UHGV virus genome: UHGV-0132372
Length of the DNA: 36,038 nucleotides
Direction: 5' to 3' (one strand)
DNA from: a virus
Positions 8,357 to 14,373 of the stretch are shown in pieces (position 1 is the first letter of the stretch; every line of letters starts with the position of its first letter). Below the pieces are notes generated by a model. That model searched no databases. It had not been told where the DNA came from and was given only the letters and a program-made list of their open reading frames with translations. A program made the translations under genes and the position numbers.

Positions 8357-8998
8357 TCAGGAGAATTTCATCATCATCTGCACTGCTACGCCGATTATCT
8401 TGCAGTTGCCGTCGATTGGGATCAACGGATAGGCAGGGTTAAGCCCTTTCAGGTATTTGTTACCGCCATCAATGATTAGCTTCTTGAACGTGGCTTCATT
8501 AGCATCTGTCAGCTTCGCAACTACCAGGCTTCCATTAACGGCTTCCTTTCCAGTGTCGAACAGAACCAGCATACCCTCAGGAACGCTAAGGCCGGTAGGA
8601 GCTGTCATTGAGTCGCCCTGAACCCTGAGCCAGAAGGCGTCACCGACAACGTGACAATCTGATTCATACCACTCATCCACTGCCTGAGGGTTGTACGGCT
8701 CTACGGCCTCACTCCATGCACCTGCGCTAACCCAGCTAATCAACGGAAACTTTTCCCCTGGCTTGTATTGTCCCTGATAGTTGTCGCCAAAAAGCAGTTC
8801 TGCCGGAGCGACGCCCAAAGCTTTAGCTATTACCTCTGCGTCATCAACACTAACGCTTCTGGTTCCTGATTCATAGTTGCCGATCCGAGATTGTGAAGCC
8901 CAGCCGCAAAGCTCCGCCAGCGCCTTCTGTGAAAGCCCTTTATCTTCCCGTAATCGCTTGATACGCGCGGCGATAGTTTCTGTTCTGTTCATGCGCAT
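8357..8998 (-). CDS. cI: CI/C2-type prophage repressor (HTH plus LexA/S24-like autocleavage domain)
   Basis: N-terminal HTH (LSQKALAELCGW...NYESG); C-terminal domain PLISWVSAGAW...VQGDSMTAP...VVAKL...ATFKKL matches the P22 C2 / lambda CI S24 domain; divergent from cro across the operator region. Confidence 0.85.
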   Translation of the reverse strand: MRMNRTETIAARIKRLREDKGLSQKALAELCGWASQSRIGNYESGTRSVSVDDAEVIAKALGVAPAELLFGDNYQGQYKPGEKFPLISWVSAGAWSEAVEPYNPQAVDEWYESDCHVVGDAFWLRVQGDSMTAPTGLSVPEGMLVLFDTGKEAVNGSLVVAKLTDANEATFKKLIIDGGNKYLKGLNPAYPLIPIDGNCKIIGVAVQMMMKFS

Positions 8999-9102: not shown

Positions 9103-9318
9103 ATGAACAACATTGCCAACGAACGGAAAAAGCTTGGCATCACTCAATCTGCGTTAGCAGGCGCGTGTGGCTGGAACCAGTCCCGCTTAGCTAACTACGA
9201 GTCAGGTATCCGGACTCCAGATTTAGAGTCGTGCCGTCGCCTGGTAAAGGCGCTGAATAAATTGGGGAGCAAGACAACGCTAGATGGCTTGTTCCCGCCG
9301 GAACACAAAGCCGCTTAA
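9103..9318 (+). CDS. cro: Cro-like HTH repressor
   Basis: 71 aa; HTH LGITQSALAGACGWNQSRLANYESG resembles the repressor HTH; divergent from cI. Confidence 0.7.
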   Translation: MNNIANERKKLGITQSALAGACGWNQSRLANYESGIRTPDLESCRRLVKALNKLGSKTTLDGLFPPEHKAA

Positions 9319-9437: not shown

Positions 9438-9731
9438 ATGGTTCGTGCAAACAAACGCAACGAGGCTCTACGAATCGAGAGTGCGTTGCTTAACAAAATC
9501 GCAATGCTTGGAACTGAGAAGACAGCGGAAGCTGTGGGCGTTGATAAGTCGCAGATCAGCAGGTGGAAGAGGGATTGGATTCCAAAGTTCTCAATGCTGC
9601 TTGCTGTTCTTGAATGGGGCGTCGTCGACGACGATATGGCTCGATTGGCACGACAAGTTGCTTCGATTCTCACCAATAAAAAACGCCCGGCGGCAACCGA
9701 GCGTTCTGAACAAATCCAGATGGAATTTTAA
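9438..9731 (+). CDS. cII: transcriptional activator CII
   Basis: Translation MVRANKRNEALRIESALLNKIAMLGTEKTAEAVGVDKSQISRWKRDWIPKFSMLLAVLEWGV... matches lambda CII essentially end to end; ATG at 9438 (the ORF-track start at 9378 is an upstream extension). Confidence 0.9.
   Translation: MVRANKRNEALRIESALLNKIAMLGTEKTAEAVGVDKSQISRWKRDWIPKFSMLLAVLEWGVVDDDMARLARQVASILTNKKRPAATERSEQIQMEF
9675..9703 (-). terminator. oop-type antisense terminator (to) inside the cII 3' end
   Basis: Plus strand AATAAAAAACGCCCGGCGGCAACCGAGCG is the reverse complement of the lambda oop RNA 3' hairpin and U-tract. Confidence 0.55.
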
Positions 9732-9752
9732 CTGCTTTCTATGGAGTTAATT

Positions 9753-10553
9753 ATGGCAAAAAAACCTACACCAGACCAGGTAAAAAAGATTCGTTCCGGC
9801 ATTACCAAGAAAATACGGTTTGAGGTTTTCAAGCGCGATGGCTTCAAATGCCAGTACTGTGGGAGTTCTGCGCCAGACGTCATCCTTCATGTCGACCATA
9901 TCAACCCAGTTAGCAAGGGTGGCGATAACGACATGATGAACCTTATTACTTCTTGCGATAGTTGTAATGGCGGGAAAAGCGACAAACTGCTCAGCGATAA
10001 CTCAATAATGGAAAAGCAAAGGCAGCAACTCCAGGAACTTAATACCAAGCGAGAGCAACTGGAGATGATGATCAAGTGGCGAGATGGTCTTAAGAGCCTG
10101 AAAGACGATGTTGTTGATATTGTCGCTACCAAAATTGACGACTGCATTGCGCCATTTACTGTTAATGACAATGGGCGAAAATCTATCAAGAGATGGCTTC
10201 GAATATATAAGCTTGAAGAAATCCTCGATGCGATTGAGATTGCTGCAGACAAAAAACTCACCCAAGAAATAACCCATGAGCTTACTGGTGAATTCTTTGA
10301 GTACATCCCTCGCATAGCAGCGACAAAAAGAAAACCGCCAAAAGAACAAAGGATTCTATACATCAGAGGAATCCTTAAAAACCGCATATATATCAATCAA
10401 AACCATGTAATGAGTTATCTCAAGGCATGGCTTTCATACGACTTAGATCTCGATGAACTTACTGAGTTTGCGAAAACAGTACCTAACTGGACAACGTTCA
10501 AGGAGTGGGTATCTGAACGCATTCGTGAAGCTCAGGAAGAACTCCCGTACTAA
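9753..10553 (+). CDS. HNH endonuclease-domain protein (N-terminal HNH, unknown C-terminal domain)
   Basis: Motif FKCQYCGSSAPDVILHVDHINPVSKGGDNDMMNLITSCDSCN; GGAG RBS before the ATG at 9753 (alternative ATG at 9741); sits where lambda has the start of O. Confidence 0.65.
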   Translation: MAKKPTPDQVKKIRSGITKKIRFEVFKRDGFKCQYCGSSAPDVILHVDHINPVSKGGDNDMMNLITSCDSCNGGKSDKLLSDNSIMEKQRQQLQELNTKREQLEMMIKWRDGLKSLKDDVVDIVATKIDDCIAPFTVNDNGRKSIKRWLRIYKLEEILDAIEIAADKKLTQEITHELTGEFFEYIPRIAATKRKPPKEQRILYIRGILKNRIYINQNHVMSYLKAWLSYDLDLDELTEFAKTVPNWTTFKEWVSERIREAQEELPY

Positions 10554-10564
10554 AGGTGGACAAA

Positions 10565-11452
10565 ATGGCACGTTCAAGAAATATCAAACCAGGCTTTTTC
10601 ACCAATGATGAATTAGCTGAGTGTTCTCCATATGCCCGTCTCCTTTTTGCCGGGTTATGGACTATTGCTGACAAAGAAGGGCGGTTGGATGATCGCCCAA
10701 AGAAAATTAAAGCAATGGTACTGCCTTTCGATGATGTGGACTGCAATGATCTGCTTCAGCAACTTCACAGTCACAAATTCATCAATCGATATCAGGTAAA
10801 TGGCGGCTCATATATCCAAATCAATAACTGGAAAAAGCACCAGAACCCTCACTGCAAAGAAGCGGCCAGTGAGATACCAGAACCAGTAGAGAATAATAAC
10901 AGCATCCTGCAAGTACAGTGCAAGGACGATAAAGAGGAAGAGAAGGAGGATACAGAATCACTTCAAGTCATTGAAAACAATGAAGCACCAGAAAAGCACC
11001 ATGCAAGTACAGTGCAAGAACAAGTTGAGAACAGTTTAAATCCTGCTGATTCCCTTAACCTGATTCCTGATTCCCTTAACCTGATTCCTGATTCCCTTTC
11101 TAACACCCAAGCCGCTGACGCGACTTGTGAAGGGGGTGGGGCTGATGTCCATAAAATTTCAAGTCGCTATGCATTCGAAGGAAATATCGTTCGGTTAAAC
11201 CACAAGGATTACGAAGCATGGAAGCGCCTGTATCCGAACATTGACCTGAATTACGAGCTGGAAAGGCTGGATATCGAATTTAGCCATGAGAAGCCAAAGA
11301 ACTGGTTTATCACTGCCAGCCAGAAACTCAGCTACCAGAACAAGCAGGCGTTATCCAGACCGGTACGCAAGGTTGCTAATGGACTTAAGGCTGAAAACTT
11401 TGCCACCAAGGATTACGGACAAACTGAAATGCCTTCATGGGCGCAGGAGTGA
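10565..11452 (+). CDS. putative replication initiator / replisome organiser
   Basis: Position between cII and the DnaC-like loader; AAAGGTGGA RBS; internal iteron-like DNA repeats encode a DSLNLIPDSLNLIPDSL linker. Confidence 0.55.
   Translation: MARSRNIKPGFFTNDELAECSPYARLLFAGLWTIADKEGRLDDRPKKIKAMVLPFDDVDCNDLLQQLHSHKFINRYQVNGGSYIQINNWKKHQNPHCKEAASEIPEPVENNNSILQVQCKDDKEEEKEDTESLQVIENNEAPEKHHASTVQEQVENSLNPADSLNLIPDSLNLIPDSLSNTQAADATCEGGGADVHKISSRYAFEGNIVRLNHKDYEAWKRLYPNIDLNYELERLDIEFSHEKPKNWFITASQKLSYQNKQALSRPVRKVANGLKAENFATKDYGQTEMPSWAQE
11047..11095 (+). repeat. iteron-like direct repeats (TGATTCC x5; 21-bp unit TGATTCCCTTAACCTGATTCC x2) - candidate ori
   Basis: Direct repeats visible in the sequence, inside the initiator gene as in lambda ori within O. 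Confidence 0.5.
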
Positions 11453-11454
11453 AC

Positions 11455-12300
11455 ATGACGCTGGATGAAAAGATCTCCCAACTGGAGAAAAAACTTGCAG
11501 AATTGAGTTCTCCGCCAATTGCTATCGAGCATACAGCTGTAGAAATTGGCACTGGCATCTGTGAAAAACACGGTGAGTTTGAGCAGCGTAACCGTTACTC
11601 GACTGGGCCAATTAAGTTTGCCTCAAGACCTAGCGAATGCCCGGAATGCATGAGAGATGAGCTTATTCGGCTACAGGCAGAGAAGATTAAAATCGACGAA
11701 GAATCACGTAAGCGCAATGTCGAATTTCTGTTGAATAATCTTGATATTCCTGAACGATTCAAGGGTTGCACACTACAGAACTACGAGCCAGTCAACGACG
11801 ATGCAAAGAGAGTGCTCAGGGTGTGTCAGGCATACGCCAGCAAATGGCCTGAGAGGTTACAGAAAGGCGGTGGGCTGGTTATGTGTGGAAAGCCTGGTAC
11901 TGGAAAGAATCATCTTGCACTGGCTATCGCCCGGCACGCAATTACGGAACATCAAAGCTCAGCTATTTTCACAACGGCGCTGAAAATTGCCAGAGAATAT
12001 AAATCAACATGGTCGAAAAACTCCACCCGCACTGAGGATGAAGTGATCCGACAGTTCACTAAACCTGACCTGCTAATTATCGATGAGGTTGGTGTGCAGT
12101 TTGGAAGCGAGGCGGAAAAGATGATCATGTTCGAAATCATCAACACCCGCTACGAGCGCATGAAGCCAACAATCCTGATTAGTAATCAGAGCAAAGATGA
12201 ACTTTCGGCATTCATTGGTGAGCGTGTTATTGACAGGATGAATGATGGCGGAGGGTGCACTCTTGCGTTTACATGGGATAGTTACAGGAGCAGATCGTGA
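11455..12300 (+). CDS. DnaC-like helicase loader (IstB-like AAA+ ATPase)
   Basis: Walker A GKPGTGKNHLALAIA and Walker B LLIIDEVG; GGAGTGA RBS before the ATG at 11455 (the ORF track starts at 11437). Confidence 0.8.
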   Translation: MTLDEKISQLEKKLAELSSPPIAIEHTAVEIGTGICEKHGEFEQRNRYSTGPIKFASRPSECPECMRDELIRLQAEKIKIDEESRKRNVEFLLNNLDIPERFKGCTLQNYEPVNDDAKRVLRVCQAYASKWPERLQKGGGLVMCGKPGTGKNHLALAIARHAITEHQSSAIFTTALKIAREYKSTWSKNSTRTEDEVIRQFTKPDLLIIDEVGVQFGSEAEKMIMFEIINTRYERMKPTILISNQSKDELSAFIGERVIDRMNDGGGCTLAFTWDSYRSRS

Positions 12301-13704: not shown

Positions 13705-13871
13705 TTGACCAAAATCGAAGTTACGAACAAGAAAGCGTCGAGCGAGCTTTAACGTGCGCTAACTGCGGTCAGAAGCTGCATGTGCTGGAAGTTCACGTGT
13801 GTGAGCACTGCTGCGCAGAACTGATGAGCGATCCGAATAGCTCAATGTACGAGGAAGAAGACGATGAGTGA
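13701..13871 (+). CDS. ninF: NinF (GTG start)
   Basis: Not in the ORF track (56 aa); [49 protein letters not shown] matches lambda NinF; GTGA overlap with the ninE stop. Confidence 0.7.
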
Positions 13872-14373
13872 TGTTAAAGAAAAAGATATCCCCGGCTTTG
13901 AGGGTATATATAAAGTAACTGAAAATGGAGACATCATTTCATGCCGTAAATCAAAAAAATTATCTCATGGCATTAAACCAGGAGGATATGCATTTGTCGG
14001 TCTGTATCCAGGTGGCGGGAAAAGACCATCATATAAAATGGTTCACAGAATTGTTGCAGAAGTATTTATTGATAACCCAGATGGCAAACCGGAAGTTAAT
14101 CACAAGGATGGAAATAAACTTAATAATAAAGTTGAAAATCTTGAGTGGGTAACGCGAACAGAAAATGCGAAACATGGATTTGATTCCGGATTGCTTGTTC
14201 ATGGGTTTAATCATCACTTCTGCAAACTAACGCCAGAACAAGTGAAATCAATATATAAATCAAAAGGCAAATACAGAGATATAGCCAAAGAATTTGGTGT
14301 TTGTGCGCAGACAGTGTGCAACATAAAAAACAAATCAGCGTACCGACGTTTTTTGGAGGGGATTGATGTTTAG
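13864..14373 (+). CDS. HNH homing endonuclease (NUMOD4/HNH_3-type) inserted in the nin region
   Basis: IPGFEGIYKVTENG...VHRIVAEVF...NHKDGNKLNNKVENLEWVTRTEN; AT-rich compared with its flanks; paralogous to 26602..27186. Confidence 0.8.
   Translation: MSDVKEKDIPGFEGIYKVTENGDIISCRKSKKLSHGIKPGGYAFVGLYPGGGKRPSYKMVHRIVAEVFIDNPDGKPEVNHKDGNKLNNKVENLEWVTRTENAKHGFDSGLLVHGFNHHFCKLTPEQVKSIYKSKGKYRDIAKEFGVCAQTVCNIKNKSAYRRFLEGIDV

What the first reader, a model, noticed from the sequence alone, without database searches (positions are those of the whole stretch)
9753..10553. HNH-domain protein occupying the slot between cII and the replication initiator
Lambda homology ends abruptly after the cII stop and oop terminator. 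The region where lambda O would start instead encodes a 266-270-aa protein with an N-terminal HNH nuclease motif (C-x2-C...HVDHINP...N...C-x2-C) and an unrelated ~190-aa C-terminal domain, translationally linked to the initiator gene. It could be a replication-associated nuclease or nickase, or a selfish insertion that replaced the oop promoter region.
Basis: partly seen in the sequence, partly recalled or inferred. Interest (0 to 1): 0.45.

Follow-up and report, generated by a model that had tools for sequence, protein, structure and literature searches.

The report
Swappable HNH nuclease gene before initiator
Between cII and the replication initiator this lambda-like phage carries an intact HNH nuclease gene that is one of several interchangeable nuclease cassettes found in that exact position, so it is most likely a selfish or competitive nuclease, not a required replication protein.

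Summary
A 266-aa ORF (9753-10553, +) has an N-terminal HNH domain (Pfam E=1e-13). All four Cys and D48, H49, N63 and N72 are invariant in 47 homologues. A ~180-aa all-helical C-terminal domain (CTD) matches no Pfam, NCBIfam or PADLOC model and no solved structure.

The whole protein is PHROG 16986 (function unknown). It is 100% identical to the 'HNH endonuclease' of Escherichia phage Louie.

The association is one-sided. In 78 of 79 assessable loci the gene abuts a replication initiator or replisome organizer, of at least four unrelated types, in Gram-negative and Gram-positive phages. Yet only 5 of the 80 viral contigs with the closest initiators carry it. There the same precisely bounded slot holds a T5orf172 (GIY-YIG clan) gene (49), other HNH genes, unrelated genes or nothing.

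Both domains are under strong purifying selection (dN/dS about 0.05). The CTD resembles the DnaD C-terminal domain weakly but above controls.

Best reading (0.55): a free-standing, homing-endonuclease-like or origin-directed nuclease cassette. A non-essential replication nickase is not excluded (0.2). Novelty is modest: an uncharacterised family of a known kind with a new architecture.

The parts
9753..10553 (+). HNH-CTD gene (266 aa; an alternative upstream ATG lies at 9741). It is a member of phrog_16986.
   Evidence: ORF. phrog_16986 E=1e-151 over the full length. 100% identical to Louie XPK42202.1 'HNH endonuclease'. dN/dS 0.04-0.07 against relatives.
9849..9983 (+). HNH (His-Me finger) nuclease core, aa 33-77: C33xxC36, D48-H49, N63, C68xxC71-N72.
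   Evidence: Pfam PF01844 E=1e-13 and HNH_5 E=3.5e-12. These residues are invariant in 47 homologues. The closest solved chain is 4h9d, with Cas9/IscB-type HNH domains next.
9999..10145 (+). One long alpha-helix (aa 83-131) linking the HNH domain to the helical bundle. It carries the conserved motif ERREQLEMMxxWRD.
   Evidence: AlphaFold2 models. R100, Q102 and W109 are invariant.
10146..10550 (+). Seven-helix C-terminal bundle (aa 132-266) carrying Y203-I-R-G-I207-L-K-N-R211. It is a possible divergent DnaD-like domain with a ~30-aa insertion.
9744..9747 (+). GGAG ribosome-binding site of the slot gene. The stretch 9732-9755 is shared with phages that carry a T5orf172 gene in the slot.
   Evidence: Sequence. 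L091 homology runs to 9755.
9438..9731 (+). cII gene (lambda-type). It forms the left boundary of the slot.
   Evidence: PF05269 E=1.7e-48. Alignment with lambda.
9680..9707 (-). Retained oop-type terminator hairpin followed by a T run.
   Evidence: Terminator scan. The sequence is identical to lambda here.
10565..11452 (+). Replication initiator (295 aa). It forms the right boundary of the slot. Homology with relatives that lack the HNH gene resumes exactly at 10564/10565.
   Evidence: phrog_17247 E=7e-190 and phrog_16167/12556/1408 'replication initiation protein'. blastn boundaries.
11046..11098 (.). 2.5 perfect 21-bp repeats (CTGATTC x5) inside the initiator gene. These are presumed origin iterons.
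   Evidence: The placement mirrors ori-lambda inside gene O (established knowledge).
11437..12300 (+). DnaC-like helicase loader.
   Evidence: PF01695 E=1.8e-18 and phrog_50 E=3e-86. NCBIfam DnaC E=2.8e-45, below the curated cut-off.

Best explanation
The gene encodes an active HNH (His-Me finger) endonuclease joined by a long helix to a helical C-terminal targeting domain. It is a mobile, non-essential cassette sitting in a hot spot for nuclease genes directly in front of phage replication-initiator genes.

The most likely mode of action is that of a free-standing homing endonuclease or an origin-directed nuclease. When this phage meets a related phage, prophage or satellite in one cell, the enzyme nicks or cuts the rival's replication region. 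The rival is either inactivated or repaired from the HNH-carrying genome. Repair copies the nuclease gene and the linked replication module across.

Shown here:
- the catalytic residues are intact and selectively maintained;
- the gene is always adjacent to an initiator;
- it is sporadically present among near-identical initiators;
- it alternates, within exact boundaries, with T5orf172 and other HNH genes.

Inferred, not shown:
- nuclease activity itself;
- the target site;
- DNA binding or replisome binding by the C-terminal domain;
- homing or exclusion.
For: (1) Nuclease competence. Pfam HNH scores E=1e-13. C33, C36, D48, H49, N63, C68, C71 and N72 are invariant in 47 homologues. dN/dS is 0.04-0.07 in both domains.

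(2) Sporadic distribution.
- Of the 80 viral contigs with the most similar initiator N-domains (61-100% identity), only 5 carry the gene.
- After collapsing to 45 initiator clusters, 5 fall in the HNH-CTD group (one of them, L166, is a different 153-aa HNH), 18-20 have T5orf172, 2 have another HNH, 3-5 have phrog_30464, and 15 have other genes or nothing.

(3) Exact cassette boundaries. In relatives without the HNH gene, DNA homology ends at 9727-9755 and resumes at 10564/10565.

(4) The slot is rich in nuclease genes:
- T5orf172/MUG113, in 49 of 80 contigs;
- a 179-aa HNH and a 153-aa HNH;
- a DUF968/HNH-like protein;
- an initiator-N-domain plus nuclease chimera (L161);
- HNH domains of the same subfamily inserted in frame into initiators next to the iterons (L149, L150, L077).

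(5) Published precedent. T5orf172 and HNH homing endonuclease genes cluster next to essential phage genes, including replisome genes. Different classes share loci. ICP1 Odn joins a T5orf172 nuclease to an initiator-derived DNA-binding domain and cleaves a rival origin (PMC10448857; PMC8263062).

(6) Two frameshifted copies sit in otherwise intact modules (L172, L171).

(7) In E. coli the gene is rare: 18 of 5426 complete genomes.
Against: - The family is tied to a functional class, not to one sequence. It abuts initiators with at least four unrelated N-terminal domains in proteobacterial, Oenococcus, Vibrio and Komagataeibacter phages. A site-specific homing enzyme would not obviously behave this way.
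- No empty-site allele with a recognisable target was identified. The other alleles mostly carry other cassettes.
- Purifying selection as strong as for essential genes, single copy per phage, and overlap with the initiator start codon fit a beneficial operon member equally well.
- In E. coli complete genomes the gene and this particular initiator co-occur perfectly: the same 18 genomes and 22 records.
- The two frameshifts could be sequencing errors.
- Cleavage specificity was not and could not be tested here.
Confidence: 0.55

Rival explanations
1. It is a replication accessory nickase. The HNH domain nicks the phage's own DNA at or near the origin inside the initiator gene, recruited through its DnaD-like C-terminal domain. 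The nick helps initiation or the change from theta to rolling-circle replication. T5orf172 proteins and initiators with a built-in HNH would do the same job in other phages.
For: - It is invariably adjacent to, and co-oriented with, initiators of several unrelated families, usually with overlapping stop and start codons.
- The C-terminal domain resembles the DnaD C-terminal domain above shuffled controls. Replisome-organizer proteins recur among the weak BFVD fold hits.
- HNH domains of the same subfamily are fused inside initiators beside the iterons, a Rosetta-stone type link.
- About three quarters of the close initiators have some nuclease-family gene in or next to them.
- dN/dS is about 0.05.
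Against: - Initiators 96-97% identical in the N-domain work with an unrelated 134-aa protein (phrog_30464) or with nothing upstream. The function therefore cannot be required.
- Frameshifted copies exist in otherwise intact modules.
- No precedent was found in the searched literature.
Confidence: 0.2
2. It is an origin-directed or replisome-directed weapon in the strict Odn sense. The C-terminal domain, derived from a replisome organizer, brings the HNH domain to the replication complexes or origins of rival phages or satellites. The aim is to destroy them, without any homing of the gene itself.
For: - Odn is a direct precedent: a nuclease plus an initiator-derived domain that cleaves a rival origin (PMC8263062; PMC10448857).
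- An unmistakable Odn-like chimera occupies the same slot in L161. Its initiator N-domain is only 49% identical to the resident initiator and is fused to a nuclease domain.
- The C-terminal domain is DnaD-like.
- The gene is maintained under strong purifying selection.
Against: - The C-terminal domain of the window protein shows no similarity to any initiator DNA-binding N-domain. It has no PHROG initiator hits, and only the HNH part matches phrog_5718.
- No candidate target element was identified.
- This reading overlaps heavily with the best explanation and cannot be separated from it by sequence alone.
Confidence: 0.15
3. It is a passenger nuclease with an unrelated role, such as host DNA degradation, anti-defence or recombination, that merely hitch-hikes in the early right operon.
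For: Lambdoid phages carry sporadic HNH genes of uncertain role, and caution about inferring role from position is advised (PMC12315714). The HNH part gives weak PADLOC hits to PtuB- and ZorE-type HNH domains.
Against: A passenger would not keep the same neighbour and orientation across phages of Proteobacteria and Firmicutes at 36-52% identity. The PADLOC hits cover only the generic HNH core.
Confidence: 0.1

Closest known systems
Free-standing phage homing endonuclease genes next to essential genes (T4 seg/mob genes; ICP1 T5orf172 and IPA-HNH genes; Barth, Dunham & Seed 2023, PMC10448857)
   Same: - The nuclease belongs to a family typical of homing endonucleases.
- It sits as a precisely bounded cassette beside an essential gene.
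- It is sporadically present among close relatives.
- Different nuclease classes alternate at the same locus.
- The architecture is modular: nuclease plus a separate domain.
   Different: - It is tied to a functional class, namely initiators of several unrelated families, not to one homologous target gene.
- It is single-copy per phage.
- Its C-terminal domain is none of the known homing-endonuclease DNA-binding modules (NUMOD, AP2, CapR, DUF723).
- No target site or homing has been shown.
Odn (origin-directed nuclease, ICP1 gp88; Barth et al. 2021, PMC8263062)
   Same: A phage nuclease built from a homing-endonuclease-type catalytic domain plus a domain related to replication-initiation proteins. 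It is non-essential, variably present, and linked to conflicts over replication origins.
   Different: - Odn uses a T5orf172 nuclease and a RepA_N origin-binding domain, and it sits at the CRISPR locus of ICP1.
- Here the nuclease is HNH, and the extra domain is at best DnaD-like, not an iteron-binding domain.
- Here the gene sits in the phage's own replication operon.
HK97 gp74-type terminase-associated HNH proteins (Kala et al. 2014, cited in PMC12315714)
   Same: A small HNH protein whose conserved position next to a machine (there the terminase and portal) reflects a working partnership.
   Different: gp74-type HNH genes co-occur with a specific terminase and portal class and are required. 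Here the initiators mostly lack the HNH gene, so no requirement can exist. The module is also different: replication, not packaging.
DnaD / DnaB_2 (PF07261) C-terminal domain of Firmicute initiation proteins and phage replisome organizers (PDB 2i5u, 2zc2, 8ojj)
   Same: A helical domain with the signature Y-x3-I-x3-[W/R] (YIRGILKNR here; YINAILKDW in 2i5u). An AIEIAxD helix precedes it. hhalign scores well above shuffled controls.
   Different: - A ~30-aa helix is inserted.
- The Trp of the motif is Arg.
- There is no Pfam-level match.
- Extra helices flank the region on both sides.
Gmet_0936 (PDB 4h9d) and Cas9/IscB/group II intron HNH domains
   Same: These are the closest solved relatives of the catalytic core (E=2e-5 to 2e-4), with the same CxxC...DH...N...CxxC-N layout.
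   Different: Only the ~45-60-aa core is shared. None has the long helix or the C-terminal bundle.

Membership tests
HNH / His-Me finger endonuclease (Pfam PF01844) | Profile match above the curated threshold | tested here: met
   51.6 bits against a cut-off of 21.4, E=1e-13, aa 33-77.
HNH / His-Me finger endonuclease (Pfam PF01844) | Catalytic His (in DH), structural Asn, metal-ligand Asn/His and two CxxC zinc pairs | tested here: met
   D48, H49, N63, N72, C33, C36, C68 and C71 are invariant in 47 sequences. The last position is Asn (an H-N-N variant), as in 4h9d.
HNH / His-Me finger endonuclease (Pfam PF01844) | Metal-dependent DNA cleavage | not testable with these tools
   Needs biochemistry.
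PHROG 16986 (function unknown) | Full-length profile match | tested here: met
   E=1.1e-151, aa 11-259 on profile positions 1-248 of 248.
Free-standing homing endonuclease gene | Sporadic presence at a fixed locus among closely related genomes | tested here: met
   Present in 5 of 80 contigs with the closest initiators. The boundaries are identical at 9727-9755 and 10564/5.
Free-standing homing endonuclease gene | Location next to or within a conserved essential gene | tested here: met
   It abuts the replication initiator in 78 of 79 assessable loci.
Free-standing homing endonuclease gene | Site-specific cleavage of the endonuclease-lacking allele, followed by gene conversion | not testable with these tools
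   No target site could be inferred. Most alternative alleles carry other cassettes, not an empty site.
Free-standing homing endonuclease gene | Degenerate copies, as expected from the gain-decay-loss cycle | tested here: inconclusive
   Two frameshifted copies were found (L172, L171), but they could be sequencing errors. One apparent truncation (P0008) was a contig end.
Origin-directed nuclease (Odn-like) | Nuclease domain fused to a DNA-binding domain homologous to a replication initiator's origin-binding domain | tested here: not met
   The C-terminal domain has no hit to initiator families, and only the HNH part matches phrog_5718. A neighbour in the same slot (L161) does meet this feature.
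DnaD-like domain (Pfam DnaB_2, PF07261) | Pfam profile match | tested here: not met
   Only 2 of 47 family members give a DnaB_2 hit, best E=0.1.
DnaD-like domain (Pfam DnaB_2, PF07261) | Profile-profile similarity and the YxxxIxxxW motif | tested here: inconclusive
   hhalign score 29.2, P about 1e-4, probability 40-64%. Shuffled controls: 11.1 +/- 2.4, maximum 18.5, 0 of 150 reach the observed score. The motif is Y203xxxI207xxxR211, with Arg in place of Trp.
DnaD-like domain (Pfam DnaB_2, PF07261) | Fold match to solved DnaD C-terminal domains | tested here: not met
Terminase-associated HNH (HK97 gp74 type) | Gene adjacent to the terminase and portal genes | tested here: not met
   The gene lies between cII and the replication genes.
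Essential partner of this initiator family | Co-occurrence in both directions | tested here: not met
   HNH to initiator is about 100%. Initiator to HNH is 5 of 80.

The most novel reading that the evidence does not exclude
The slot in front of phage replication initiators holds functionally equivalent nickases: this HNH-CTD family, the T5orf172 proteins, and the HNH domains built into some initiators. A DnaD-like domain or direct fusion would recruit them to the origin, where they nick it and launch rolling-circle (sigma) replication. That would give a concrete, testable mechanism for the long-unexplained theta-to-sigma switch of lambdoid phages.
Probability: 0.1. Interest if true: 0.85.

Novelty: new variant of a known kind. 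Interest (0 to 1): 0.4.

Why it matters
If the best reading is right, the 5' boundary of phage replication-initiator genes is a general landing pad for competing nuclease cassettes (HNH-CTD, T5orf172, other HNH genes, Odn-like chimeras).

- This would help explain why lambdoid replication modules are so mosaic and why their exchange boundaries fall exactly at gene starts.
- It extends the 'nucleases at boundaries of genetic exchange' picture, and the origin-directed nuclease picture, from ICP1 and T4 to temperate lambdoid phages, including Stx-converting phages.
- It also defines an uncharacterised, widespread protein family: about 300 clusters at 50% identity, in phages of Proteobacteria and Firmicutes. 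The architecture is new, an HNH domain plus a possibly DnaD-derived domain.
- If the minority reading is right instead, it would bear on how these phages start rolling-circle replication.

Tried and rejected
- Pfam at E<=10 on all 47 family members: no consistent C-terminal domain family. NCBIfam and PADLOC gave nothing for the C-terminal domain.
- I tested whether the other slot occupants share the C-terminal domain: HK639_53, yong1 gp27 and the T5orf172 protein. hhalign probability was below 1% for all three, so this was rejected.
- I suspected N-terminal fusions in 330-395-aa ORFs of high-GC contigs. They are artefactual upstream ORF extensions.
- I suspected that longer family members (415-570 aa) were fusions to initiators. 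Their extra C-terminal parts have no PHROG hit, so this was rejected.
- I took P0008 (206 aa, lacking the catalytic DH) for a decayed copy. It is cut by a contig end.
- Many ~160-180-aa 'CTD-only' representatives start at the conserved MM motif. The one examined is a frameshifted full-length gene, so a stand-alone CTD architecture is not established.
- Literature searches for a described function of this family (HNH plus replication module, replisome organizer, DnaD or JBD44) found only annotations.
- The first attempt to scan for initiator relatives failed because the alignment was too diverse. It worked with 11 sequences.

Full report
**1. The observation**

The window encodes a 266-aa protein at 9753-10553 on the + strand. 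An in-frame ATG at 9741 would give 270 aa. The ATG at 9753 is the likely start for three reasons: a GGAG lies 5-6 nt upstream, homologues start MAKK..., and the identical gene of Escherichia phage Louie is annotated that way.

- Residues 33-77 match Pfam HNH (PF01844, 51.6 bits, E=1e-13) and HNH_5.
- Upstream is a lambda-type cII (PF05269, E=1.7e-48).
- Downstream, 11 nt after the stop and behind an AGGTGG, is a 295-aa replication initiator (phrog_17247/16167/1408).
- After that come a DnaC-like loader and a MarR/Ren-like gene.

Alignment with lambda shows near-identity through cII that ends at the stop codon, with no homology afterwards. The oop terminator hairpin is retained on the minus strand at 9707-9680.

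The description is therefore correct. The only adjustment is that the link to the initiator is tight spacing, not overlap. In most relatives the two genes do overlap.

**2. The protein**

A search of the 5.8-billion-protein collection found 1586 proteins with E<=1e-5. The best 120 are almost all ~250-aa proteins covering 89-100% of the query at 45-98% identity. All are named 'HNH endonuclease' or left unnamed, and none has a Pfam domain beyond HNH.

In an alignment of 47 full-length members, the invariant residues are:
- the four Cys (C33, C36, C68, C71);
- D48-H49, N63 and N72;
- in the C-terminal part, R100, Q102, W109, Y203, I207, R211 and W246.

So the catalytic and zinc-binding residues of an H-N-N type His-Me finger are intact throughout the family. 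The closest solved chains share only this core: 4h9d and the Cas9/IscB/group II intron HNH domains (NCBIfam).

AlphaFold2 with this alignment gives:
- a modest model for the HNH part (pLDDT mostly 50-77);
- a very confident model for residues 85-266 (mean pLDDT 94.6), consisting of one 46-residue helix followed by a seven-helix bundle.

The bundle has no convincing relative among solved structures:
- Foldseek against the PDB: nothing below E=1.
- BFVD: one significant hit, an unnamed 405-aa viral protein.

Among the non-significant BFVD hits, 'replisome organizer', 'replication initiation and membrane attachment' and G39P-N proteins recur.

The conserved motif Y203-IRGILKN-R211 resembles the Y-x3-I-x3-W signature of DnaD/DnaB C-terminal domains. 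That signature I recalled from memory. It is visible in the PDB sequences 2i5u, 8ojj and 2zc2 retrieved.

I tested the resemblance with hhalign, comparing the C-terminal domain (CTD) profile with an alignment of DnaD C-terminal domains:
- observed score 29.2, P about 1e-4, probability 40-64%;
- the alignment pairs W145...AIEIAAD and YIRGIL with the DnaD helices, around a ~30-aa insertion;
- 150 column-shuffled controls gave 11.1 +/- 2.4, maximum 18.5;
- the reversed alignment gave 12.1.

Pfam DnaB_2 appears in only 2 of 47 members, at E>=0.1. I therefore treat a DnaD-derived origin of the CTD as plausible but not established.

Both domains are under strong purifying selection. dN/dS is 0.04-0.07 against relatives with dS of 0.18-0.47.

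**3. Genomic context: a one-sided association**

*From the nuclease to its neighbour.* I examined 80 IMG/VR loci and four sequenced phages (Louie, Pseudomonas JBD94b, Oenococcus Krappator27, Vibrio 219E41.1). JBD44 and Komagataeibacter phiKX1 show the same gene order.
- In 78 of 79 assessable loci an ORF of 180-385 aa starts between -41 and +24 nt from the HNH stop. L063 is the exception; five further loci are cut by contig ends.
- 52 of the 78 neighbours share the ~100-aa N-terminal domain of the window's initiator.
- Of 20 of the remaining 26 that I scanned, 18 match other replication-initiation PHROGs: O-like, DnaD-like, DnaT/primosomal and replisome organizer. Two match nothing.
- JBD44 has gp1 HNH, gp2 initiator, gp3 DnaB helicase.
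- Krappator X27 has ORF35 HNH and ORF36 replisome organizer. The authors annotate these without comment on function (PMC12403621).

*From the initiator to its neighbour.* Among the 80 IMG/VR contigs whose initiator N-domain is most similar to the window's (61-100% identity), only 5 carry the HNH-CTD gene. The gene directly upstream is instead:
- a 245-aa T5orf172/MUG113 protein (GIY-YIG clan; phrog_16524) in 49 contigs;
- a 134-aa protein of unknown function (phrog_30464, as in HK639) in 7;
- a different 179-aa HNH in 2;
- a 153-aa HNH in 1;
- a DUF968/HNH-like protein in 1;
- an initiator-N-domain plus nuclease chimera in 1 (L161);
- assorted or very small ORFs in the rest.

Two further contigs (L149, L150), and L077 from the first set, have a ~60-aa HNH domain of the same subfamily inserted in frame inside the initiator. 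It lies between the N-domain and the repeat-encoded 'DSLNLIP' segment.

After collapsing to 45 initiator clusters (>=95% nt identity), the picture holds:
- 18 clusters have T5orf172 only;
- 2 are polymorphic for T5orf172 and phrog_30464;
- 5 fall in the HNH-CTD group, one of which (L166) carries the different 153-aa HNH;
- 3 have phrog_30464;
- 2 have the 179-aa HNH;
- 15 have something else.

blastn shows that in relatives lacking the HNH gene, homology to the window stops at 9727-9755 and resumes exactly at 10564/10565. The left boundary is the end of cII, the shared ribosome-binding site and the start codon. The right boundary is the initiator start codon. The HNH-CTD gene and the T5orf172 gene are therefore alternative cassettes in one precisely delimited slot.

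In complete E. coli genomes the gene is rare (18 of 5426). There it is always found with this particular initiator allele, in the same 18 genomes and 22 records.

**4. Interpretation**

Initiators with N-domains 96-97% identical to this one operate with an unrelated upstream gene (T5orf172 or phrog_30464 in L091-L094), and more distant ones with no slot gene at all. The HNH-CTD protein therefore cannot be a required partner of the initiator.

The pattern matches what has been described for free-standing homing endonuclease genes in phages (PMC10448857):
- the nuclease is always next to an essential gene, but the essential gene usually lacks it;
- the cassette boundaries are exact;
- other nuclease families, T5orf172 above all, alternate in the same slot.

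The same work and PMC8263062 describe Odn. It is a T5orf172 nuclease that acquired an initiator's origin-binding domain and cleaves a rival element's origin.

The slot studied here contains an obvious analogue in L161. That protein has an initiator N-domain, only 49% identical to the resident initiator, fused to a nuclease domain.

Two frameshifted copies of the HNH-CTD gene lie in otherwise intact modules, which fits dispensability. I cannot exclude sequencing errors.

I therefore favour a selfish or competitive nuclease that acts on the replication region of related genomes. Its helical CTD, possibly derived from a replisome organizer, would provide targeting (confidence 0.55, plus 0.15 for the strict Odn-like variant without homing).

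**5. What does not fit, and the main rival**

A classical homing enzyme is tied to one target sequence. This family keeps its position in front of initiators with unrelated N-terminal domains, across phages of distant hosts, at 36-52% protein identity. It also shows selection as strong as for essential genes and frequent start/stop overlap.

Together with the DnaD-like CTD and the in-frame HNH-initiator fusions, this keeps a second model alive. In it, the protein is a beneficial but non-essential replication accessory: a nickase recruited to the origin region, with T5orf172 proteins as analogues (confidence 0.2).

Presumed iterons, 2.5 x 21 bp, lie at 11046-11098 inside the initiator gene. Sequence analysis alone cannot separate the two models. 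The experiments that would are listed under next steps.

**6. Novelty and verdict**

The gene itself is already annotated in GenBank as an HNH endonuclease, and the family exists as PHROG 16986 with unknown function. I found no paper that discusses its function.

Four things appear to be new:
- the strict, one-sided association with replication initiators;
- the shared nuclease slot with T5orf172 and other HNH genes in lambdoid phages;
- the confident but unmatched helical CTD with DnaD-like features;
- the related in-frame HNH-initiator fusions and the Odn-like chimera.

This is a new variant of a known kind (phage free-standing, homing-type or origin-directed nucleases), of moderate interest (0.4). 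The most novel reading not excluded, an origin nickase that triggers rolling-circle replication, I put at about 0.1.

Noticed in passing
L161:1864-2508 (IMG/VR UViG_2675903026_000007), directly upstream of the initiator at 2501: A 214-aa ORF made of an initiator N-terminal domain (aa 32-131) fused to an EndoVII/HNH-like nuclease domain. Its N-domain is 49% identical to that of the resident initiator. This is an Odn-like 'origin-binding domain plus nuclease' chimera in the same slot.
   Followed up: partly
L149:2501-3523, L150:2501-3514, L077:4762-5853: These replication initiators carry a ~60-aa HNH domain of the same subfamily, inserted in frame between the N-domain and the repeat-encoded DSLNLIP segment. 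The two from L149 and L150 closely resemble the window's initiator. PHROG 5718 has the same initiator-N plus HNH layout.
   Followed up: partly
L091:1764-2501 and 48 other loci among L090-L169: A 245-aa T5orf172/MUG113 (GIY-YIG clan) protein, phrog_16524, function unknown, is the commonest occupant of the pre-initiator slot. It shares the same ribosome-binding site, ATG and right-hand boundary as the HNH gene.
   Followed up: partly
window 11046-11098: Two and a half perfect 21-bp direct repeats (CTGATTC five times at alternating 14- and 7-nt spacing) lie inside the initiator gene and encode LNLIPDSLNLIPDS. They are probably the origin iterons, as in lambda O.
   Followed up: partly
window 9750-9758, minus strand: TGcCATAAT overlaps the HNH start codon, and lambda has the same CATAAT over the O start. 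It could serve as an extended -10 for an oop-like antisense RNA ending at the retained terminator (9707-9680), even though the lambda -35 region is gone. The consensus promoter scan found nothing here.
   Followed up: no
L172:1651-2169 (E. coli GCA_022541795.1) and L171:~250-1051 (Logan SRR8272541): These are frameshifted copies of the HNH-CTD gene. L172 has a 1-bp deletion at nt 348 of the gene, in an otherwise intact cI-cro-cII-HNH-initiator-loader module. They may be decay or sequencing error.
   Followed up: partly
P0127, P0132, P0147, P0161, P0178, P0209 and others: About 13 of the 150 best CTD representatives are 415-570 aa. They have the HNH-CTD layout plus extra C-terminal regions of 170-300 aa that match no PHROG.
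   Followed up: partly
L085:2098-2502 (HK639_53) and L086:1956-2492 (Hafnia phage yong1 gp27): Other occupants of the slot include a 134-aa protein of unknown function (phrog_30464) and a 178-aa protein. The latter matches phrog_3007 (labelled RusA-like) and, weakly, the central domain of the DNA polymerase III beta clamp.
   Followed up: partly
window 13864-14373 (+): A second, unrelated nuclease gene (169 aa) lies in the nin region. Its counterpart in phage Louie is annotated as an HNH endonuclease, with another short HNH ORF next to it, so this phage carries several nuclease cassettes.
   Followed up: no
window 8357-8998 (-), 9103-9318 (+): The immunity region (a 213-aa LexA-like repressor and a 71-aa Cro-like protein) is not lambda's, although cII differs from lambda cII by a single residue by my recollection of the lambda sequence. 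This is a typical lambdoid mosaic.
   Followed up: no
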